Positions 8,254-64,000 of a stretch of DNA of 64,000 bases are shown here, in pieces. How positions within the stretch are numbered: position 1 is the first letter of the stretch; every line of letters begins with the position of its first letter. This DNA is from a virus: positions 27,886 through 91,885 of the IMG/VR virus record IMGVR_UViG_3300023179_000056; one strand, written 5' to 3'. Both the position numbers and the translations under genes were made by a program. The notes under the pieces were generated by a model. That model was not told the origin of the DNA. It did not search any database and was given only the letters and a program-made list of their open reading frames with translations.

Positions 8254-11200
8254 ATGGCAACCACTACCAGACAAACAGTTATATTCGGAGTAGAAGATTG
8301 GAAACGCATCTACGAGACCTACAGAGAAGCGGATTTCCAAAGCTATGACTTTGAAACCTTACGCAAAAGTTTTGTAGACTATCTGAGACAGTATTACCCA
8401 GAGACTTTTAATGATTACATTGAAAGTTCAGAATTCATTGCACTGTTAGATGTGATAGCATTCATGGGTCAGGCCATGAGTTTTCGTAATGATCTCAACA
8501 CCAGAGAAAACTACATAGACACTGCTGAACGTAGAGACAGTGTGGTTCGACTGGCCAATTTAATAAGTTATACACCCAAACGAAACACTGCTGCCAGTGG
8601 GTATCTCAAAGTATTTTCTGTTCAAACCACAGAAAACCTCACAGACTTCAATGGTATAAATCTAGCCAATGTCACAATCAACTGGAACGATCCTACCAAC
8701 TTCAATTGGTTAGAGCAGTTCACAGCCGTTATCAATGCAGCATTGGTAGATACACAACGAGTTGGACGTCCAGGCAATCGTGAAACCATAGTGGGAGTAG
8801 ATACATCAGAATATGCAATCAACCTGGTTCCTGGATTTTTGCCAGTATTACCCTACACAGCCACGGTGGATGGGGTTAATATGCCATTTGAAGCAGTGAA
8901 TGCCACATCGGTTGGGACACCATCAACTTCTCCTTTTATCTTTGAGCCAGCACCACAACCTAGTGGTATTTTCAACGTGTTGTTCCGCAATGACTCACTG
9001 GGTTATGCAGCAGCCAATACAGGATATTTTTTCTACTTCAAGCAAGGTGTATTGCAAAATCAAGATTTTAATCTAGCTGAACGCATTCCTAATCGCACAG
9101 TCAATATCAATATTGATGGTGTAAACAATGAAGATCGTTGGTTGTTTCAACTTGACAATACTGGCACAGTAACTAAACAATGGCAGTATGTACAGTCTGT
9201 ATATGCTGCGGCAGCAGAACAACTGGCACCAGACCAACGTAGTTTATTTTCAGTAACATCCAGGGCCAACGATCAAATCACATTGACATTTGGCGACGGT
9301 GTATTTTCAGCTGTGCCTACTGGGTTGTTCCGTGCATATGTTCGTGCATCAAACGGATTACAATACATTATTAATCCAGAAGAAATGCAAAGTGTAGTAT
9401 TGCCTATCAGCTATATCAGCAGATCAGGACAGTTGGAAACTATCACATTTACCTGTGGTATCACAACCCCAGTAAGCAATGCTCAAGCTAGAGAAACACT
9501 GGATGAAATCAAACAACGTGCGCCTGCTAGATACTATACACAGAATCGCATGGTCAACGGTGAAGATTACACTAACTTTCCGTTTACTGAATACAATTCT
9601 ATCATCAAGAGTTATGCATTAAACCGTGCCAGTATTGGTACCAGTAGATATCTTGATCTAGTGGACAACACAGGCAAGTACAGCTCCACCAACATCTTTG
9701 CATCTGACGGTGCCATATGGGAAGAAAATCAGTTGCCTACATTTTTGTTCAACTGGCTTACCAACAATGACATTGCTAATGTGCTGGTTAATCAAGTACA
9801 GCCAATAATAGCAACTGATGCATTTGTGCAGTTTTACTATGCCAACTTTCTTAGACCAGATCTAGCAGTATTGAATTTAACCTGGCATCAGAGCACAACG
9901 TTGGCCAATGAAACCACTGGATACTTTGTGAATGCTGCCGGCAATCCTGCACCTATCGGCGCATACAGCAGTTCTAATTCAAAATTTATTACTGTGGGCA
10001 GTTTGGTTAAATTTACAGCACCCGCAGGCTATTTCTTTGATGCCACCAATCGACTCAAATTGGGCATACCCACACTAGCAGATGAACGCTTGTACTTTTG
10101 GGCTAGTCCTTTGAGTATCTATCTAGACGGAACCAATCAAGGGCAAGGAAACTTTGTAGATGGAACAGGACCTGTGGCCATGAATGTGTTTGTGCCAACT
10201 GGTGCAATTCCAACTGAAGTAATTCCATTGTTAATTACCAGTTTGCCCAGCAGTTTAATCACAGAAATCACACAACAAATTTTGCTGTATAGAAATTTTG
10301 GGTTAGGATATGACAACACCGGCGCAATCACAGGTACACCGTACACATGGTATCTAATCACGTCCAACAACATAGACGTTGATGCCACTTTTAGTTTGGT
10401 CAATGCAGGTAGCACATCCGGCACAAATCAAGATGCCAGCTGGATGATCCAAGCAGTGACCAATGGTACAAAATACACAGTAACCAGTCGTGCATTGGTG
10501 TACAATTGGGGTTCGGTATTACAAACAAGATTTTTCTTTGAAACCGGCAATCGCATCTATGATCCGCGACTGGGCAATATAGTGAGCGACTATATTAATG
10601 TGCTCAAAGTCAATAGTTTGCCTGACTCAAATAGTCCTCAACCCGGGGACATTTATCTCAAGATTACCGGACAGCCTGTGCAGTCCGACGGACTAGTTGA
10701 TGATTTCCAAGTCATCGTCAGCTATGAAGATCGTAACAATGATGGTGTTACAGATGATCCTGATTTCTTCAATGAAATTGTTGCGCCTGACGTGAATTCA
10801 AATACAAAATATGTATTCTTCCAAAAGACCGTGGACTTTGACAATCTGCAACGCTATTTGTTAATTGCCTCTGGAGTTGTCAACAGTGACTATGCTACCA
10901 TGGATGATATTGAAGCTGTAAAAGCTCAATACATTATTGGGCAGATTTTTTATGCATATTCACAAACAATAACAGTGGGACCATTGGCCGGACAAGTGGG
11001 TGCGTTTTATCAATTGGTAATCAGTACCAATGGAACAAAAATCCTACTGGACGTGTCAGGGGAGTGGTTGGCCAAAGTGGGACGATCAGGAATGTATTTC
11101 CAATACCGGCACAATGCTCCGCTGACCGACCGTATTGATCCAGGTACTACCAACATTATTGATTTGTATGTGGTCACCCAGGCCTATTACACAGCTTATC

Positions 11201-56370: not shown

Positions 56371-56853
56371 CTAAGCTGCTCGGCGATTGCTCAACACCCA
56401 ATCCAGCCTGTCAGCAGCATAGCTGGCAGCAAAGGCTCTAGGCTTGACCATTGGAATCACATTGCAAGTGCCTTTGATGTAACCAATTGCTTGGTTAACC
56501 ACCACAGAGCTTTTGTGCATTTGATCTGGATTGATGTCCAAATGTACTTCCACAACACGATCTTCAAGCACATCACTCATCTTTTGGAACAGTTCACTAA
56601 CCTTGTATACTTCGTTCATGAGTCTCATGGCAGGTTTGTCGCTGCGTTGATCCCAGTCACGTTCACGTTGTACTTCACCAAAGATTTTGCAACCATGGCA
56701 GCTATCAATGTGTACAACCACCGCCAGAGCATAGTCTGCGTACCATACGTCATTGACTTTTACTCGTTCGCTGTCGCAGCCCAGATACACACTGGTTTCA
56801 GGACTTTGAGCATGTATAAATGCTTTGACTTTTTCTAGGTCCATTTTTTTCAT
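56371..56853 (-). CDS. RNase H-like YkuK (DUF458) family protein
   Basis: YLGCDS...RLMNEV...EVHLDIN...KP.AFAASYAAD; ends in TAG. Confidence 0.85.
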   Translation of the reverse strand: MKKMDLEKVKAFIHAQSPETSVYLGCDSERVKVNDVWYADYALAVVVHIDSCHGCKIFGEVQRERDWDQRSDKPAMRLMNEVYKVSELFQKMSDVLEDRVVEVHLDINPDQMHKSSVVVNQAIGYIKGTCNVIPMVKPRAFAASYAADRLDWVLSNRRAA

Positions 56854-57512: not shown

Positions 57513-57604
57513 AAATTTTCTATTCTGAAACACACTCATCACGCACCGTATTAACTGCGATCAACTAGTTAACCTAATAGGTATCAAAATGTGTTTTAGA
57601 ATAG

Positions 57605-58497
57605 TGGAGTGCTGAGAATACACACTTACCCAACAACACCTCGGACATTATTGTACACCTTGCGAGCATACTTTCTTCCGACTTCCACCAAGTTCTATTT
57701 CTAGATATCCTGGTCTGTTGTCAACATCGCCGTTTAGAGACAGGCAGTAGTCTTGTCGCCATATGCTATTCTACGCTTTCTATCCCGTTGACCTTGCGAG
57801 CCATTCAAGTGCGCTAACACCTTACGAAACTTCCTGCATAAACAAACCTCACCTTGCGAGCTTGGGTTGACTGGATTACCTTGCGGCTCCAGTATTAGAT
57901 GCTTTTCACATATGACCGAGTCAGTCTTTGCATTTTAATCGTTAGTAGGACTTGAACCCACAGTCGACTCCTTAACAGGGAGTTAGCTTACATTAGCTTA
58001 TAACAACCTACTGCGATGTGCTGACTCAGTTGCTTCATATTCTTTTGGAATACAAAATACAACACACCACGTTCCTTTTGTCTTGCGGACTACTCAGACG
58101 TCTTTCACGATCGGCGTCGGGGTCTCGGCTTTCGCATACCCGCCACTAACCATTAAAACTGCATACAAGCCCTTGGGTGCAACCCCTTGGACAAATACAC
58201 TACCCTTTCTCATACTAACTAACTGGACTGGTTTAGTTGTGAAGTCAGCACCACCTGTTACTTTCCATCTACTCCGGTTACCCTTGCGGGCCGGTAAGCA
58301 AACGTTCTTTCCACAACATCCAGCGTCATTGTTACAACCACCGGTCTTATCAGTGATCGGATCCTCACGGACCTGAGCAGGCTTGTCTAAACGAACCATT
58401 GCTGGCGGAGTTATGTAGGCATACCTCCTTTGGCTGTGTCACCACAGTTATTCTTCATAAACCAGCAAGCTGGCCTATAGGATGTTAAACCACCCTT
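57605..58497 (-). ncRNA. GOLLD-like giant ornate RNA (~890 nt)
   Basis: Long region with no credible ORF inside a tRNA array; many GCAA/GNRA-capped hairpins on the minus strand; embedded tRNA; ends approximate. Confidence 0.7.
57937..58007 (-). tRNA. tRNA-Asn(GTT)-like element embedded in the giant RNA, no CCA
   Basis: ACTCC-CTGTTAA-GGAGT anticodon arm; GTGGG-TTCAAGT-CCTAC T-arm; weak acceptor. Confidence 0.65.
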
Positions 58498-58743
58498 GAA
58501 TTTCATTGTAACATCAACTGCTGAACTAGTCAACTATCAATGTTACCAAAATCTCTATATCCACATACACTTGCAGGAATTGAACCTGCCCACCTGGCGA
58601 CCATTTGTACATCCAGGCTGTAATCCGCTACATCTGCCCGGCCTGGGCATTTGTGCATGTGGATATAAAGACTTGAACTGTTGTCAGTCTTTATATCAAG
58701 CGAATTTTTAATGAACAATCAGTTAATTTCTTAACTTGCAGCA

Positions 58744-58772
58744 AGTATAACATCAGTGGAGATACTTGTCAA
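58744..58772 (-). promoter_or_regulatory. Sigma70 promoter upstream of the giant RNA
   Basis: TTGACA-17 bp-TATACT. Confidence 0.75.
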
Positions 58773-58773
58773 G

Positions 58774-58847
58774 TGGTAGACTCTACAAGAATTGAACTTG
58801 TTTCTGTACCATGTCAGGGTACTGTTCTTCCATTGAACTAAGAGTCT
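58774..58847 (-). tRNA. tRNA-Val(GAC)
   Basis: Loop CTGACAT, CCA. Confidence 0.88.
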
Positions 58848-58857
58848 AGGATCTGTA

Positions 58858-58947
58858 TGGCAGAGGAAGGAGGAATCGAACCCCCACCAGCTCACGCCAG
58901 TGGCCTGTTTTCCAAACAGGTGTAGGAACCATCCTACTGCATCCTCT
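58858..58947 (-). tRNA. tRNA-Ser(GGA)
   Basis: Loop TTGGAAA, long V-arm, G73. Confidence 0.88.
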
Positions 58948-58954
58948 AATGTGT

Positions 58955-59029
58955 TGGTGGAGGATAGCAGATTCGAACTGCTGACTCTGCCATGCCATGA
59001 CAGTATGTTTCCAACTATATCAATCCCCC
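58955..59029 (-). tRNA. tRNA-Ala(GGC)
   Basis: G3:U70, loop ATGGCAT, CCA. Confidence 0.88.
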
Positions 59030-59063
59030 GAGCCCGGTAAATATGTATTACCAGGAGATTTTT

Positions 59064-59252
59064 ATGAGTGACTTTTTTGCCCGCGATCCACGTATCCAAG
59101 ACGATGTAATCAGAGACCTTGAAAAAAAGATACACTATCTCATGGCCTGCATTGACAATCAAGGCATGCTCATGGACAACACTGTGTTCAACGTGCCCAG
59201 TTTGCCTAATGAAGTCATGGCCGATGCCATGGAAGTTGCACAACAATTATAA
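59064..59252 (+). CDS. Small hypothetical protein, antisense to the tRNA array
   Basis: TAAATA promoter, AGGAG RBS, MSDFFARDPRIQ... Confidence 0.65.
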   Translation: MSDFFARDPRIQDDVIRDLEKKIHYLMACIDNQGMLMDNTVFNVPSLPNEVMADAMEVAQQL

Positions 59253-59335
59253 TGGTGCCCCGGGCGGGATTCGAACCCGCAAAAACCTGGCTTCTAAGAC
59301 CAGTAGCTGTGCCAATTTGCATAAGTCACCAGGGC
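59253..59335 (-). tRNA. tRNA-Leu(TAG), atypical (short V-loop, enlarged D region)
   Basis: Loop CTTAGAA, CCA. Confidence 0.8.
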
Positions 59336-59352
59336 AAATTTCTTGGTGGTTG

Positions 59353-59426
59353 TGGTAGTAATTGAAAGAATCGAACTTTCGTCACCAGCGTATGAAACTA
59401 GGGTTTTACCATTAAACTAAATTACC
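59353..59426 (-). tRNA. tRNA(CAT), elongator Met or Ile2
   Basis: Loop TTCATAC, CCA. Confidence 0.82.
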
Positions 59427-59473
59427 AATATTTATACTTTGATTAGTCGCTATGCTACACTGCCATTAATTTT

Positions 59474-59549
59474 TGGGTTGATCTATGGGAGTTGAACCCA
59501 TTCTATCGCTTTCACAGAGCGAGGTGCGCACCGGTACACTAAGAACAAC
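59474..59549 (-). tRNA. tRNA-His(GTG), copy 1
   Basis: G-1:C73, loop CTGTGAA. Confidence 0.85.
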
Positions 59550-59565
59550 ATAAATATAGTTAAGA

Positions 59566-60666
59566 TTACATATTCAAGATAGAAGCAAATTCAGGAAAAT
59601 ATTCTTTATACGATTGATCTCTCAATTGATCAACTTCACGTATCCTATCTGATAGGCATCTAGTTAAAGTTTCCTGTCCATCACCCAGTAAATAAGTCTT
59701 GATCGGCTGTGCCGGGGCAGATAATAAATTTCTAGCTATCAAATCTTTTAAATTATTAGATAAATTAATAATGTTAAAATGCTGCGGTTTTGTTACTAAC
59801 CCAATATAGGGTACAGGTAATTCTTCTTGTTCGATCCATCTTATGAAATTGTCTAAGTAAAAAACGTTTAAGATACCAACGGTGTGACTAATGCTTAATT
59901 GAATGTTACTAGTTGCACGTTGAAATTCTTGATATCGCTTAATATTAGCATATACAATTTCCCACTTAGCGGGATGTCGCATATACTCAAATTGATTACC
60001 TACACCGTCTATACTCAGTTGAATATCAACACTTTTAAATTGCTTCCATAAAGAAATTAACTCTGGTTTGGGAAAGTTTGTACAATTTGTAATGTATCTC
60101 AGTGTTTTCTTTTCTGGATTATGATTTAATAAATATTTGATATAATCTATGTGTTCTTTTATACCCGAATAAAATGGTTCACCGCCCGGGAACTCAATCA
60201 AAATCGCGTCTTTTGACAATTCAAAAAGACGAAGCATTGTTTCAGTATTTTTATAAAATTTATTATGATTGAAAATCTTAATCTCAGGTCTATGCTTTTT
60301 TAATTCTTTTTCATCCGAAACCCAACTTGAGCTAGCATAACTTTTGCAATATCTACAAGATAGATTACATGTATTACCAAATGCAAAACTTACTATTTTA
60401 AGCGTATCATTAAAAGATTCTTGACATAGAGTACTTGACTCTAATTGTCTTTTGCTATCTTTGCCTGATAATTCATCTTTCCAACATCTATTACATGCGC
60501 TAGGCTTTTCTCCTAACAAAAAAGCAGACTTCAACTCTTTTAGTTCTTTGCTCGATAGATAATCATCTAGATTATCTGCAATAGAAGTAGCATATTTACA
60601 GCAAGGTTTGAATTCCCCCTGAGGACTAATGTCTATTCCTTGCCACGGTAGCTTACAAAAAGTCAT
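59566..60666 (-). CDS. Radical SAM protein (twitch-domain type), AT-rich
   Basis: FCKLPW...KPCC; CNLSCRYC; GGEP; TAAATA directly upstream of ATG 60666. Confidence 0.88.
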   Translation of the reverse strand: MTFCKLPWQGIDISPQGEFKPCCKYATSIADNLDDYLSSKELKELKSAFLLGEKPSACNRCWKDELSGKDSKRQLESSTLCQESFNDTLKIVSFAFGNTCNLSCRYCKSYASSSWVSDEKELKKHRPEIKIFNHNKFYKNTETMLRLFELSKDAILIEFPGGEPFYSGIKEHIDYIKYLLNHNPEKKTLRYITNCTNFPKPELISLWKQFKSVDIQLSIDGVGNQFEYMRHPAKWEIVYANIKRYQEFQRATSNIQLSISHTVGILNVFYLDNFIRWIEQEELPVPYIGLVTKPQHFNIINLSNNLKDLIARNLLSAPAQPIKTYLLGDGQETLTRCLSDRIREVDQLRDQSYKEYFPEFASILNM

Positions 60667-60813
60667 CTTATATTTAACATGCAATATAACAGGATGCATT
60701 TTTACGTTTTAGATTAGAAGTCTAGTGTATAAAATGTTTGCAGTTAGCATCCTAAAATTGGTTTCCAGCAGGTAACGCTACTTGATATTAAGTTAAGGGC
60801 AATAAATACTATT

Positions 60814-60978
60814 ATGAAAACATACAAGAATCATACTCCAAGTGGTTTGAACTTCCACCTGTCACTTAGTGACTCTGGCGTTTGCTACATCATTGTGTAC
60901 GATGTGTTTACTGCCGAAGCTCAAATGCGTTATTTTACCAACGTGTCTCGAGCCTTGCGTTTTATCAACAATCTTTAA
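60814..60978 (+). CDS. Small hypothetical protein (54 aa)
   Basis: Translated by hand: MKTYKNHTPSGLNFHLS...FINNL; ATAAATA upstream. Confidence 0.6.
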   Translation: MKTYKNHTPSGLNFHLSLSDSGVCYIIVYDVFTAEAQMRYFTNVSRALRFINNL

Positions 60979-60979
60979 T

Positions 60980-61054
60980 TGGGGTGACTAACGGGTAACG
61001 ATCCCGTGCTACAACTTTCACAGAGTTGGGTGCTTCCATTACACCATAGCCACC
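60980..61054 (-). tRNA. tRNA-His(GTG), copy 2
   Basis: G-1:C73, loop CTGTGAA, atypical T-loop ATCGTTA. Confidence 0.85.
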
Positions 61055-61582
61055 ATATCTTTTGTCTACTATATAGAAACATTTTCAATATTAGTTCAAT
61101 GCTGGCACAAAGAACCGTTCGCCCCTGCCAGGGGACCGAAGTAGTTACCGCTAATTTCTGGGCGGCACCCTCCCCGTCAAAAATGTTTATATATGGCCCC
61201 AGTCTCTCCTAGGAAGTCACGACTGACGCTGCCGTTTACGCTGGGTAATGACCCCAGACCGGAACCTTACCATATAGAAACACACCGCTGTTGCTACGTC
61301 ACAGGTAGGGTGATCAATCCTCTTACCGATGTGTTTTTATATAGCGAACTCATTGTAGACAGGATTCGAACCTGCAAGAGGCGTTTATTTCCTCAGGCCC
61401 CTTCAATGAGGCCCATGTATACCATTCCATCACTACGAGTTCATCGGGTCATGACTCCCGATTCTGGTCGAGGTTAATTACTCCTTCAGATACCATAAGT
61501 AAACACACTACAGGGTCCTCTATAACCTGCGCCGGAATGAATTCGAATACTTCACCGGAAGATTTAGTAATGTGTTTGCTTA

Positions 61583-61658
61583 TGGTCGGGGCACAGGGAT
61601 TCGAACCCTGAATTGGCACTTTAAAAGAGTGCTGTGATAACCGTTTCACTATACCCCG
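61583..61658 (-). tRNA. tRNA-Lys(TTT)
   Basis: Loop CTTTTAA, CCA. Confidence 0.9.
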
Positions 61659-61663
61659 TATAT

Positions 61664-61738
61664 TGGTCCCGTGGCTCAGATTCAAACTGAGTTCTCTCGG
61701 CTTAAGAGGCCGGACTTCATCATCAAAGTTTCCTCGGG
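61664..61738 (-). tRNA. tRNA-Lys(CTT)
   Basis: Loop CTCTTAA, CCA; atypical D/T loops. Confidence 0.82.
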
Positions 61739-61855
61739 CGGTGCATACTAAATTGTCTTTAATGTGCCAATCCAGGACCAATATACGGGGTCTACGATTG
61801 ACACTACATTTTACGAGATTTTCGTTTCATATAGTACCTTTTTGTTTATGTATTA

Positions 61856-61884
61856 ATTATACAACCTTTTGCAGTAGTTGTCAA
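61856..61884 (-). promoter_or_regulatory. Consensus sigma70 promoter
   Basis: TTGACA-17 bp-TATAAT. Confidence 0.85.
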
Positions 61885-61900
61885 CTGTGATCTGCTTGCA

Positions 61901-61977
61901 TGGTACCACCTGAGAGATTCGAACTCCCAATCCCCGGATTCGTAATCCAGTGCTCTATCCAGTTGAGCCAAGGCGGT
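61901..61977 (-). tRNA. tRNA-Arg(ACG)
   Basis: Loop TTACGAA, CCA. Confidence 0.92.
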
Positions 61978-62052
61978 AAAAAAACTAGTCCAGAGGCTCT
62001 CCAAATAACGGAACAAACACTCAGTCACTGTGAGTGACGCATGGACTTGACT

Positions 62053-62131
62053 TGGTTGCGGGGGGTGGATTCGCACCACCGATCTCCAGCTTATGAGACT
62101 GGCGGGGACGACTAGACTCCCCTACCCCGCG
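62053..62131 (-). tRNA. Initiator-type tRNA-fMet(CAT)
   Basis: CGCGGGG acceptor with C1xA72 mismatch; loop CTCATAA. Confidence 0.85.
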
Positions 62132-62137
62132 ATAACT

Positions 62138-62212
62138 TGGTGCCCCTTGCAAGAATCGAACTCGCACACCCTGCTTACAAAACAGGACCTCTACCATTAA
62201 GGATAAAAGGGC
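62138..62212 (-). tRNA. tRNA-Thr(TGT)
   Basis: Loop TTTGTAA, CCA. Confidence 0.9.
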
Positions 62213-62351
62213 TAAATTTCTTTTAATATGTCTTGCCATTAAATGGCAAGATCTTTGTTATAATTTTGTGTTTTATTCTTCCGTCTATTCTCCATGGCAG
62301 GAAGATATTGTAAATTGTCTTGACATTGTGGTGAGGTGCACCATGTCATCT

Positions 62352-62708
62352 TCAAAAAGAGATAACCTCTGCAGCAGATAATGCAGATCTTGCTTGTTCT
62401 AATGTAATGCCTAAATCATAGTTCATTACTAAAAATGTAGCAAACAATTCTGTTAGGTCAGTTGTATAATATTCCAGTTGTTGCTTGTACGCTTGAGCTT
62501 CGTATTTTAAACGAGCTTCTTTACTGAAATAGTATCTTAACGGAAACATAATTGGGTTGCTCCAGAATTGTTTAACGTGCGTTAATTCATGTGTTAACAA
62601 TCCTCTATCTTCTTTGTACTTGGTGCGAATGAGACATACTGGTCCTATTGTGTAAGCACCAAACCGTTTTGGTATAAACCATTCTGTGTAAAATACTAAA
62701 CTTATCAT
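62352..62708 (-). CDS. Small HExxH metallopeptidase-like protein
   Basis: GLLTHELTHVKQF...YEAQAY; TAAATA and AAGGA upstream. Confidence 0.7.
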   Translation of the reverse strand: MISLVFYTEWFIPKRFGAYTIGPVCLIRTKYKEDRGLLTHELTHVKQFWSNPIMFPLRYYFSKEARLKYEAQAYKQQLEYYTTDLTELFATFLVMNYDLGITLEQARSALSAAEVISF

Positions 62709-63234
62709 AAAACTTCCTTATGTTTGTATTTATCACCATATTGAAACACCCATTGCGCTTTTAAGTAATGCTACAGCCTAGCATTTGGCTCTCACTTAAA
62801 AGAATAGATGTTTCGATATGAAAGCTGGTTACGAATCCAGCACAAGTATATCGTTCTCGTCGATCAAATCACGTATACTTACTTCGTTTAAGACTCGCCG
62901 CCTTTTACTTCGCTGTATACCACGAAGGCTGGTTACGATAACTTCCAGCGTTGGTGCCGCCCATGCAACCACAGACCTTCTCTTCCGCTACGCAGTTGAG
63001 CCAACCGATCAAGCATTAATGAATTTGTAAGCATAGACCCTCAGGTTAGTTCTATGATTTAGATGTGCAACGCTAGTCAATTCACATCGAGGTTTTCCAG
63101 GGTATGTTACTTGGGATACTTGACATAGGTGCTCCACTGCATTTACGGTACTCGAACCCGCCCTACTTTTACACTGAGTTGACCTTCGAAGAATCTTCCC
63201 AGCGAGTCTTTCTCTTGCTAACTCTTACAAAAAT

Positions 63235-63489
63235 TGGCTTCGTCAGCAGGACTCGAACCTGCGATAGGGGCTCAAAATCGCGTATGCTGGGTGCCCCCGT
63301 GTTTCCCAATGATACCCTCACATCCCCTCAATGCCTTATCTCGACGTTCACACATTTCAACCTGTTCCGCACTTCCCGGACTCACAGTGTTTGGTTTTAA
63401 AGCCTACGCGATTATTATCTACTTTGTGCTACTAGCAGCCTTATCTCACCTACTCAATGCTACTCTTTCATCCTCTACACTATAACGAA
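63235..63489 (-). ncRNA. 255-nt tRNA-like RNA with large internal insertions
   Basis: TTCGTTA/TGACGAA acceptor + GCCA; perfect GCAGG-TTCGAGT-CCTGC T-arm. Confidence 0.65.
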
Positions 63490-63497
63490 ATAAAAAT

Positions 63498-63578
63498 TGG
63501 TGGACCCCGTCGGTATTTCACCGCACTCTTAGTTCAGTAACGTTATTTCTGAACCAACGCATCTCACGTTGAGAGCCC
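63498..63578 (-). ncRNA. Non-canonical tRNA-like RNA with G3:U70
   Basis: GGGCTCT/GGGGTCC + ACCA; long hairpin in place of the anticodon arm. Confidence 0.5.
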
Positions 63579-63585
63579 ATAAACT

Positions 63586-63694
63586 TGGTGGATTGTAAGG
63601 GACTTGAACCCTTGTCAGACCAAGAGTGCGATGGCGCACACTCGATAATGCTCCTACGGCTATTCACCGTGCATAAGACCATCCTTGACAACCC
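63586..63694 (-). ncRNA. tmRNA-TLD-like mini RNA with G3:U70
   Basis: GGGTTGT/ACAATCC + ACCA; GAC-AAGGG-TTCAAGT-CCCTT; no D-stem or anticodon arm. Confidence 0.6.
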
Positions 63695-63881
63695 ATTAGA
63701 AAGCAATCTTGGCGTATTCGGGCGAGTCCCTTACGGGAGAGTTTACCTGGGATGCCAAACCTGATCCAGTATTTCTACTAGATTTAGATTGCTTACTGAT
63801 AGGGCCCTGCGAGTAAGAATTGCGCTTACTGCTTACATGCATGCGGTGTCGTGCTACTAGTACACTACGCAGGGATAAACT

Positions 63882-63969
63882 TGGTGCATCATGTTGGATT
63901 CGAACCAACGCTAGAAAACCTTGACACTTCAAGGTTGAGGCAACCGCACCCCGTTACATCCTATGACGC
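63882..63969 (-). ncRNA. tRNA-like RNA without a canonical anticodon loop
   Basis: GCGTCAT/ATGATGC + ACCA; GTTGG-TTCGAAT-CCAAC T-arm; AACCTTGA-AGTG-TCAAGGTT hairpin. Confidence 0.6.
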
Positions 63970-64000
63970 GAAACTAAAGCAAAGTGGCAGCGTGAGTCCG

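What the first reader, a model, noticed from the sequence alone, without database searches (positions are those of the whole stretch)
57520..62820. Family of RNA modules sharing a conserved closing stem but with unrelated interiors
Seen: five elements (57520-57604, 61071-61194, 61271-61344, 61493-61585, 62737-62820) are closed by 12-15-bp stems of consensus roughly YAUAUnnAAACAC...GUGUUUnnAUAUR. Each has one mismatch on the transcribed strand just outside the AAACA block. A sixth (58556-58667, UAUAUCCACAUGCAC/GUGUAUGUGGAUAUA) is similar. Interiors differ entirely (multi-hairpin, pseudoknot, tRNA-like). Most start at the 3' end of an upstream RNA, and two overlap its CCA: tRNA-Lys at 61583 and the tRNA-like RNA at 61194. 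Inference: a common handle for a nuclease, ligase or RNA-binding protein that releases or protects a set of small cargo RNAs.
Basis: partly seen in the sequence, partly recalled or inferred. Interest (0 to 1): 0.75.

Follow-up and report, generated by a model that had tools for sequence, protein, structure and literature searches.

The report
Shared-stem RNA cassettes between phage tRNAs
Between the tRNA genes of this uncultured giant lake phage, and of hundreds of its relatives, sit small RNA cassettes that share one conserved 19-base-pair closing stem but carry very different inner RNAs; this modular system appears undescribed and its purpose is unknown.

Summary
The five elements are real, lie on the tRNA-sense (minus) strand, and belong to one family. 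A covariance model of the stem finds all five, and in 766 kb of five related phage records it hits only inside tRNA arrays. The sixth element (58556-58667) is a different long-stem RNA.

The stem is a 19-bp RNA helix:
- 93% of positions pair, and 12 of 19 pairs show compensatory changes.
- In 100 of 164 copies it starts exactly at the discriminator base and CCA of an upstream tRNA. It often ends inside the first bases of the next tRNA.
- Position 9 is usually unpaired, mostly A.C.

The interiors are replaceable. I found 135 different ones falling into 107 unrelated groups. The same interior occurs at different tRNA junctions. Some stems are empty, and some relatives have no stem at the same Lys-His junction.

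My best reading is a processing and stability adaptor that lets passenger small RNAs ride on the tRNA transcript. Release would be by tRNA-end enzymes, an RNase III-type cut, or both. No partner protein was identified: Ro60, RtcB, Nop and phage RNase III were not found in these incomplete records.

There is no Rfam family and no paper that prints the motif. This scan has met the same family before on other DNA (e1-5411612, e1-5836200, e1-5697727, e1-5687263).

The parts
57519..57605 (-). Handle cassette E1. It lies between the 3' end of the GOLLD-like RNA and tRNA-Val(UAC). Position 9 is A.C.
   Evidence: The model scores it at 51.9 bits, but it was one of the rows used to build the model. Fold. 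The same cargo family sits after GOLLD in relative G2 and inside a canonical handle in L172.
61068..61197 (-). Handle cassette E3. Its cargo is a conserved three-hairpin RNA with complementary CUGGCA/UGCCAG loops. Its 5' CCA belongs to the upstream 75-nt RNA.
   Evidence: Model hit of 30.7 bits; this element was not in the training set. The cargo is 94% identical in G1. 11 pairs show compensatory changes across 4 homologues.
61269..61345 (-). Handle cassette E4, downstream of an odd tRNA-like gene. Position 9 is A.C.
   Evidence: Model hit of 48.5 bits; not in the training set. Its cargo cannot be aligned with the cargo in the same slot of G1.
61492..61586 (-). Handle cassette E5. Its first four bases, ACCA, are the discriminator and CCA of tRNA-Lys(UUU). 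Position 9 is C.A.
   Evidence: The model scores it at 55.8 bits, but it was a training row.
62735..62822 (-). Handle cassette E7, a weaker variant with no flanking tRNA. It lies 28 nt upstream of the 118-aa ORF at 62352-62708.
   Evidence: Model hit of 28.2 bits; not in the training set. Fold. ORF list.
61583..61658 (-). tRNA-Lys(UUU). Its 3' ACCA forms the first four pairs of the E5 stem.
   Evidence: ARAGORN and Rfam. In the whole sample, 62 handles start at the CCA of tRNA-Lys(UUU).
61195..61269 (-). 75-nt conserved small RNA between E4 and E3. It ends in CCA, and that CCA starts the E3 stem.
   Evidence: 93% identical in G1. Reading the two sequences shows a compensatory CUGGGG/CCCAG to CUGAGG/CUCAG change.
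61351..61439 (-). Odd tRNA-like gene between E5 and E4, which ARAGORN calls with a 2-base anticodon.
   Evidence: It is conserved in G1 (72% identity over the spacer).
60980..61053 (-). tRNA-His, the downstream end of the Lys-to-His segment that holds E5, E4 and E3.
58549..58674 (-). It is not a member of the family.
   Evidence: Fold of -59.2 kcal/mol on the minus strand. No model hit at E<=0.01. The stem is conserved in G1.
61650..61794 (-). A different 20-bp leader-to-junction stem that encloses tRNA-Lys(CUU). It is not a member, but follows the same architectural habit.
   Evidence: It is conserved, with changes on both arms, in G1 and G2.
56371..56853 (-). YkuK/DUF458 RNase H-like ORF inside the tRNA array. 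It is only a candidate for an array-associated nuclease.
   Evidence: Pfam PF04308, E=1.8e-15. It is present beside the array in all 5 records searched. No link to the handle was shown.

Best explanation
The elements are passenger small-RNA cassettes built into the long tRNA-array transcript of a T4-like giant lake phage.

Each cassette is closed by a conserved 19-bp RNA helix:
- The 5' strand begins at the discriminator base and CCA of the upstream tRNA or other stable RNA.
- The 3' strand is the leader of the next tRNA and can include its first 1-3 bases.
- The outer 8 pairs are A/U-rich.
- Position 9 is kept weak or unpaired, mostly A.C.
- The inner 10 pairs (AAACACAUU/AGUGUGUUU) are conserved in sequence and include a U.G pair next to a U-A pair.

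Inferred mechanism: the stem works as an adaptor. It keeps the insert from disturbing the folding of the neighbouring tRNAs. It puts the cassette ends where RNase P and the tRNA 3'-end enzymes cut, and it may add an RNase III-type cut near position 9. The released cargo is left capped by the inner stem, which protects it from exonucleases.

Shown here:
- the helix forms in the sense-strand RNA;
- it joins tRNA ends exactly;
- cassettes are optional, can be empty, and move between junctions.

Inferred only:
- which nuclease cuts;
- that the cargos accumulate;
- what the cargos do.
For: Helix and strand:
- On 130 distinct copies, 93.4% of cells pair and 12 of 19 pairs have changes on both sides. 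None of 500 shuffles reached the observed values, and slid controls pair at 29-60%.
- Outside positions 9 and 17, G.U outnumbers A.C on the tRNA-sense strand by 74:10, and by 50:5 in an independent sample chosen through a neighbouring protein.
- Cargos fold more stably on the sense strand (p=1e-11).
- Empty handles carry short loops such as GUGA.

Junction with tRNA ends:
- 100 of 164 copies start exactly at N73-CCA of a tRNA called by ARAGORN. 46 end 1-2 nt inside the next tRNA.
- Position 3 co-varies, C-G to U-A.

Restricted to arrays:
- Model R1 hits only tRNA arrays in 766 kb.
- One hit in 185,579 prokaryote genomes, on a 1.5-kb contig binned in a Planktophila MAG. None in cultured phages.

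Modular and optional:
- 135 cargos fall into 107 groups.
- Homologous cargos sit at different tRNA junctions in many of the 23 multi-member groups.
- Four-fold degenerate sites are 66% identical between the window and G1, yet two cargo slots cannot be aligned while a third is 94% identical.
- The Lys-to-His junction occurs with a 7-12-nt plain spacer, with an empty 35-38-nt hairpin, or with loaded cassettes.

RNase III-like shape:
- The helix spans about two turns, has a weak pair in the middle and A/U-only pairs beside it.
- It carries a U-A plus U.G step like the canonical distal box described in PMC1540722.
Against: - No RNA ends were seen. The RNA runs were held only as assembled contigs.
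- Relatives manage the same Lys-to-His junction with a plain 7-12-nt spacer. The stem is therefore not needed for tRNA maturation, and a selfish or neutral origin is not excluded.
- Most cargos are only weakly structured (mean z = -0.5) and mostly singletons. That fits free-to-vary loops as well as it fits functional RNAs.
- The strong sequence conservation of the inner helix is more than RNase III usually needs and hints at another, unidentified partner.
- In one possible register, C13-G falls on the proximal-box position where C-G inhibits E. coli RNase III binding.
- At position 9 the common A.C would be a G.U on the opposite strand, so that single position taken alone would favour the antisense strand.
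Confidence: 0.55

Rival explanations
1. The stem is the constant scaffold of a dedicated ribonucleoprotein system. An unidentified phage protein binds the conserved inner helix and the mismatch. The variable cargo gives specificity, acting as a guide, decoy or sponge in conflicts between phage and host or between phages.
For: - The inner helix is conserved in sequence across phages whose four-fold sites are only about 41% identical.
- Cargo diversity is extreme and cargos are replaced wholesale between phages about 95% identical in protein.
- Cargos move between junctions.
- A DUF458 RNase H-like ORF is kept beside the array in all five records.
Against: - No Nop, TROVE or RtcB gene was found.
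- Cargo lengths run from 4 to about 130 nt with no shared internal motif.
- The window's cargos show no complementarity above chance to the 92-kb phage record.
- The DUF458 link rests on position alone, and all the records are close relatives.
Confidence: 0.2
2. The hairpins are punctuation only. They are cut or insulation sites in the array transcript, and their loops are free to drift, grow and be replaced. Under this reading the 'cargos' have no function of their own.
For: - Empty handles exist.
- Cargo z-scores are near those of random sequence.
- Most cargo groups are singletons.
Against: - Some cargos are strongly conserved, with compensatory changes: the E3 type and the E1 type, which follows GOLLD in two phages.
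- Cargo GC is 47%, against 40% for the loci.
- Plain short spacers serve the same junction in relatives, so punctuation is not needed there.
Confidence: 0.13
3. The elements act at the DNA level. The inverted repeats would be sites for recombination or homing (attC-like folded sites, endonuclease targets or MITE-like ends) that shuffle tRNA genes and inserts. The RNA helix would be a by-product.
For: - The same junction shows presence or absence of the element.
- Modules are found at different junctions.
- In G2, a 220-aa antisense ORF with weak endonuclease-like hits lies exactly between the CCA and the handle.
- The size range resembles that of attC sites (own knowledge).
Against: - Wobble pairs are strongly one-sided, favouring the transcribed tRNA-sense strand.
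- No cargo was found in inverted orientation.
- Inspection of the flanks shows no target-site duplication.
- Interiors are unrelated, unlike copies of a transposon.
- Stem ends coincide with RNA processing sites.
Confidence: 0.07
4. The elements are Y-RNA-like (YrlA-type) RNAs, with the stem as a Ro60/Rsr binding site.
For: - They have a long stem formed by the two RNA ends.
- A minority of cargos carry a T-arm next to the 3' strand.
Against: - No TROVE gene in the five records.
- No Rfam match of any kind to the window's five elements, even at E<=1.
- Most cargos are not tRNA-like.
Confidence: 0.03

Closest known systems
RNase III processing stems: phage T7 early-RNA sites (R1.1) and the stems that flank rRNAs in bacterial operons (PMC1540722)
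   Same: - A double helix of about two turns formed by sequences that flank a stable RNA in a polycistronic precursor.
- A weak or unpaired position in the middle.
- A/U pairs beside that position.
- A U-A plus U.G step like the canonical distal box.
   Different: - Here one stem sequence is reused around more than 100 unrelated interiors.
- It starts exactly at a tRNA's CCA and is optional at a given junction.
- Cleavage by RNase III is untested.
- One possible register places an inhibitory C-G pair in the proximal box.
Phage T4 stable RNAs species 1 and 2 (rnaC, rnaD) in the T4 tRNA cluster (own knowledge)
   Same: Small non-tRNA RNAs of unknown function, co-transcribed with phage tRNAs in a T4-type phage and released by the tRNA processing machinery.
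   Different: - T4 has two fixed RNAs, not a shared closing stem with interchangeable interiors.
- BLAST of the region against 50,697 phage records found no similarity beyond tRNAs and GOLLD.
tRNA-linked hairpin RNAs released by tRNA enzymes: MHV68 TMERs (viral tRNA-like plus pre-miRNA hairpins cut by tRNase Z) and engineered tRNA-gRNA arrays (own knowledge)
   Same: Passenger RNAs are placed directly after or between tRNAs, so that RNase P and 3'-end enzymes define their ends.
   Different: Those are eukaryotic or engineered systems. They have no conserved closing stem that pairs with the CCA, and none is known from phages.
YrlA / bacterial Y RNAs (Rfam RF02553)
   Same: The two RNA ends form a long stem. 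Some members carry tRNA-like parts, and such RNAs are found in phages.
   Different: There is no Ro60 gene, no Rfam match and a different stem sequence. Most interiors are not tRNA-like.
TIGR stem-loop arrays (PMC12045711)
   Same: Phage-borne small RNA units with a palindromic stem around variable sequence.
   Different: TIGR units have two 8-12-nt spacers flanked by box C/D motifs and a Nop-domain Tas gene. Neither was found here.

Membership tests
RNase III processing signal | Double helix of about two turns (at least 11 bp between the cut site and the helix end) | tested here: met
   19 co-varying pairs, 93.4% paired. Criterion taken from PMC1540722.
RNase III processing signal | Internal loop or weak pair at the cut site | tested here: met
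   Position 9 is unpaired in 106 of 130 copies and in 40 of 70. All other inner positions are at least 97% paired.
RNase III processing signal | Proximal-box and distal-box base-pair rules of the E. coli enzyme | tested here: inconclusive
   The U18-A plus U17.G step equals the canonical distal box, and positions 10-12 are A-U. The register could not be fixed because the figures are not held. C13-G may fall on an inhibitory position. The host enzyme is unknown.
RNase III processing signal | Cleavage by RNase III with a 2-nt stagger | not testable with these tools
   Only assembled RNA contigs were available.
YrlA / Y RNA | Ro60/Rsr (TROVE) gene in the genome | tested here: not met
   PF05731 is absent from five records that are 26-75% complete. 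Because the records are incomplete, this is not proof of absence.
YrlA / Y RNA | Match to the Rfam model | tested here: not met
   No Rfam match of any kind to the five elements at E<=1 in the window. None at gathering score in five relatives' arrays.
TIGR-Tas | Nop-domain Tas gene beside the array | tested here: not met
   PF01798 is absent from the five records.
TIGR-Tas | Two 8-12-nt spacers flanked by box C/D motifs | tested here: not met
   Interiors run from 4 to about 130 nt, with no conserved internal columns.
CRISPR array or solitary repeat unit | Direct repeats of 25-37 nt with spacers of uniform length | tested here: not met
   The arms are inverted, not direct. Most units stand alone between tRNAs, and interior length varies about 30-fold.
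Invertible DNA segment | The same interior found in both orientations | tested here: not met
   0 opposite-strand pairs against 33 same-strand pairs among 135 interiors.
MITE or transposon | Copies share their interior; target-site duplication | tested here: not met
   107 unrelated interior groups. Inspection of the five flanks shows no duplication.
Integron attC site | IntI integrase and GTTRRRY core sites | not tested
   No integrase search was run. The arms do not show RYYYAAC/GTTRRRY. One-sided wobble pairs fit an RNA, or a single folded DNA strand.

The most novel reading that the evidence does not exclude
The conserved stem is the scaffold of a new phage small-RNA system. A dedicated protein would recognise the inner helix and the position-9 mismatch. 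The interchangeable cargos would be specificity modules (guides, decoys or sponges) that phages swap by recombination at the arms during conflicts with hosts or with rival phages.
Probability: 0.15. Interest if true: 0.9.

Novelty: new variant of a known kind. Interest (0 to 1): 0.62.

Why it matters
Phage tRNA arrays are usually read as codon-supply or anti-defence tRNA sets. Here they also serve as an expression platform: one conserved adaptor stem lets well over 100 different small RNAs ride on the array, be released at tRNA ends, and be exchanged between phages.

If the cargos are functional, this is a large and unexplored pool of phage small RNAs in lakes. It sits next to the highly expressed GOLLD RNA.

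If only the stem matters, it is a new, sharply defined RNA processing signal. It would also be a natural counterpart of engineered arrays that use tRNAs to release guide RNAs.

Either way, the stem is a simple search key: a 16-base word, or model R1.

Tried and rejected
- Inverton reading: no cargo occurs in the opposite orientation.
- Antisense or guide reading within the phage: BLAST of six window cargos against the 92-kb record gave only chance-level matches of at most 13 identical bases outside the T-arm-bearing sixth element. The record is only 26% complete.
- RNA evidence: four metatranscriptome runs held only contigs. GOLLD (57584-58503) is covered very deeply. The cassettes have too little conserved sequence to map, so nothing can be said about their level or ends. 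One contig shows the E1 stem closing a 7-nt loop in a relative.
- Late-promoter reading (TATAAATA-like UAUAAAAA in the 5' arm): rejected, because these bases co-vary with the 3' arm (UAUUG, UAUGC, UAGAU, UUCUA variants).
- Terminator reading: no U-run follows the stem.
- Neighbour-gene routes that gave little: the radical-SAM ORF found one distant locus. A 14-base word from the E3 cargo gave mostly chance hits and only 4 true homologues. The DUF458 relatives found are all from the same clade, so co-occurrence says nothing.
- Mapping the stem onto the E. coli RNase III box register failed, because the figures are not held.
- A 2023 catalogue of about 8,500 IMG/VR structured-RNA candidates (PMC10690425) could not be checked, because no supplement is held.

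Full report
CONTEXT

The window is the last 64 kb of a 91.9-kb IMG/VR record, estimated 26% complete, of a T4-like giant phage. Runs that hold it are lake and freshwater metagenomes.

From about 53 kb to the contig end, the minus strand carries a tRNA array. It holds 24 ARAGORN tRNAs, a tmRNA and a GOLLD RNA. All the elements in the finding lie in this array.

OBSERVATION

Inverted repeats with 13-nt arms and at most 1 mismatch cluster at 57.5-62.8 kb and include all five elements. A strict detector requires AAAC(R)(Y) ... (R)(Y)GUUU plus at least 7 of 9 outward Watson-Crick pairs. It finds 3 in the window, against 0.03 per locally shuffled window.

On the tRNA-sense strand, the pair just outside the AAACA block reads A.C, U.C, A.C and C.A in four elements. 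In 62737-62820 it is C.A, one pair further out.

tRNA-Lys(UUU) ends at 61583, and its ACCA forms the first four pairs of the 61492-61586 stem. The stem at 61068-61197 starts at the CCA of a conserved 75-nt RNA.

RELATIVES

The baseplate wedge protein finds more than 599 related viral contigs. I fetched the arrays of five long contigs, G1 to G5. The first four (G1-G4) carry the same stem, mostly in the segment between tRNA-Lys(UUU) and tRNA-His: one copy in G3 and G4, two in G2, and three in the window and in G1.

In 81 of the 93 matches in the loci examined, the partner arm lies within 320 nt.

THE HELIX

On 130 distinct copies:
- 93.4% of cells form standard pairs.
- 12 of 19 pairs show changes on both sides.
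- No shuffle out of 500 reached the observed values.
- Sliding the partner by 1-3 columns drops pairing to 29-60%.

Position 1 is the discriminator base and positions 2-4 are CCA. Position 3 co-varies from C-G to U-A.

Position 9 is unpaired in 106 of 130 copies. A.C is commonest; C.A, U.U, C.C, U.C, G-C and A-U also occur. Positions 10-13 are AAAC/GUUU. Position 17 is mostly U.G and position 18 is U-A.

I took a second sample through a neighbouring protein gene rather than through the stem. It gave 70 unique copies from 37 loci with the same picture:
- Position 9 is non-Watson-Crick in 40 of 70.
- Every other position from 2 to 18 is at least 97% paired.
This alignment was fitted to the model, so it leans towards the structure.

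WHICH STRAND

Outside positions 9 and 17, G.U outnumbers A.C on the tRNA-sense strand by 74:10, and by 50:5 in the second sample. Cargos fold better on that strand (mean -12.8 against -10.7 kcal/mol, p=1e-11). Empty stems carry loops such as GUGA.

The helix is therefore an RNA helix of the array transcript. The A.C at position 9 is a kept weak point, not a tolerated wobble.

JUNCTION WITH tRNAs

98% of the tRNAs in these loci encode CCA.

In 100 of 164 copies the stem starts exactly at N73-CCA of a called tRNA: Lys-UUU 62, Gln-UUG 18, Glu-UUC 5, and many others once. These counts are biased by how the sample was seeded. In 46 copies the next tRNA starts 1-2 nt before the stem ends. In those cases its first bases pair with the CCA of the previous tRNA.

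MODULARITY

- The 135 unique interiors fall into 107 BLAST groups, and none is inverted.
- Interior length runs from 4 nt (empty hairpins) to about 130 nt.
- Between the window and G1, four-fold degenerate sites are 66% identical. Even so, the cargos of two slots cannot be aligned (z about 0), while the third, the E3 type, is 94% identical.
- The E3 cargo is a conserved three-hairpin RNA with 11 compensatory pairs and invariant complementary loops.
- The E1 cargo family follows GOLLD in two phages, and sits in a canonical stem after tRNA-Gln in a third.
- In many of the 23 multi-member groups, the same cargo lies between different tRNAs.
- The Lys-to-His junction exists in three states: a plain 7-12-nt spacer, an empty 35-38-nt hairpin, and one to three loaded cassettes.

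The stem is therefore not required for tRNA maturation. It is an optional, exchangeable module.

SPECIFICITY AND NOVELTY

Model R1 hits only inside tRNA arrays in 766 kb of five records. It retrieves all five window elements, three of which were not used to build it. It does not retrieve the sixth.

- Rfam 15 has nothing there, even at E<=1.
- No held paper prints the motif.
- Literature searches found no description.
- Cultured phages have no match.
- 185,579 prokaryote genomes gave one hit, on a 1.5-kb contig binned in a Planktophila MAG. It is probably a stray phage fragment.

Earlier notes of this scan describe the same family on other DNA. They agree with what I measured here, but they are not independent proof.

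MECHANISM

Three facts point to an adaptor for passenger RNAs: the stem is anchored on tRNA ends, it is optional, and it carries anything from nothing to conserved folded RNAs.
- RNase P at the next tRNA, and the 3'-end machinery at the CCA, would cut at the base of the stem.
- The A/U-rich outer 8 pairs and the weak position 9 would let those ends open.
- The conserved inner helix would stay closed and cap the cargo.

The shape also fits an RNase III site as described in PMC1540722: about two turns, a weak middle pair with A/U pairs beside it, and a U-A plus U.G step like the canonical distal box. I could not fix the register, and the host is unknown.

No phage RNase III, Ro60, RtcB or Nop gene was found in the five incomplete records. 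A T4 Rnl1-like ligase is present in one. A YkuK/DUF458 RNase H-like ORF is kept beside the array in all five, but nothing ties it to the stem.

VERDICT

The handle-and-cargo idea is supported. The acting enzyme and the role of the cargos remain open.

Noticed in passing
window 57584-58503 (minus strand): The GOLLD-like RNA extends well beyond the Rfam hit (57609-58070). Relatives' copies are covered at summed contig depths of thousands to hundreds of thousands in four freshwater and estuary metatranscriptome runs. It is bracketed by the long-stem RNA at 58549-58674 and by cassette E1.
   Followed up: partly
window 56371-56853 (minus strand); L217-L221: A 160-aa YkuK/DUF458 RNase H-like ORF sits inside or beside the tRNA array in all five related records. 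The family is uncharacterised and no solved structure matches by sequence.
   Followed up: partly
L093:8528-9190 (minus strand of the locus): In relative G2, a 220-aa antisense ORF is inserted exactly between the CCA of tRNA-Lys(UUU) and the first handle, and ACCA is duplicated at the joint. Its Pfam hits (DUF7487, phage endonuclease I) are weak and below cut-off. It may be a homing-type insertion at the conserved site.
   Followed up: partly
window 61650-61794; L092 and L093 counterparts (sense coordinates 9723-9860 and 8329-8463): A different 15-20-bp stem pairs a leader with the junction between tRNA-Lys(CUU) and tRNA-Lys(UUU), and so encloses the whole tRNA-Lys(CUU). It is kept in G1 and G2 with changes on both arms.
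   Followed up: partly
window 61184-61282 and similar places in G1 and G2: Where cassettes stand in tandem, the 3' arm of one can pair equally well with the 5' arm of the next. This would enclose the tRNA-like RNA between them, so two mutually exclusive foldings are possible.
   Followed up: no
window 59253-59330 and 62820-64000 (minus strand): Several sequences bearing T-arms are missed by ARAGORN. One scores 25 bits against the Rfam tRNA model (59264-59323). The last 1.2 kb of the contig is dense in such odd tRNA-like RNAs.
   Followed up: no
L222 (GTDB contig CAZQNP010000058.1, 1478 bp): A 1.5-kb contig binned in a Candidatus Planktophila MAG matches three cassette cargos. It is probably a mis-binned phage fragment, or possibly a hint at the host.
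   Followed up: no
sample of 164 cassettes: Cassettes most often follow tRNA-Lys(UUU), tRNA-Gln(UUG) and tRNA-Glu(UUC). These are the three tRNAs with a modified wobble U34, which several anticodon nucleases target (own knowledge). The counts are biased by how the sample was seeded.
   Followed up: no
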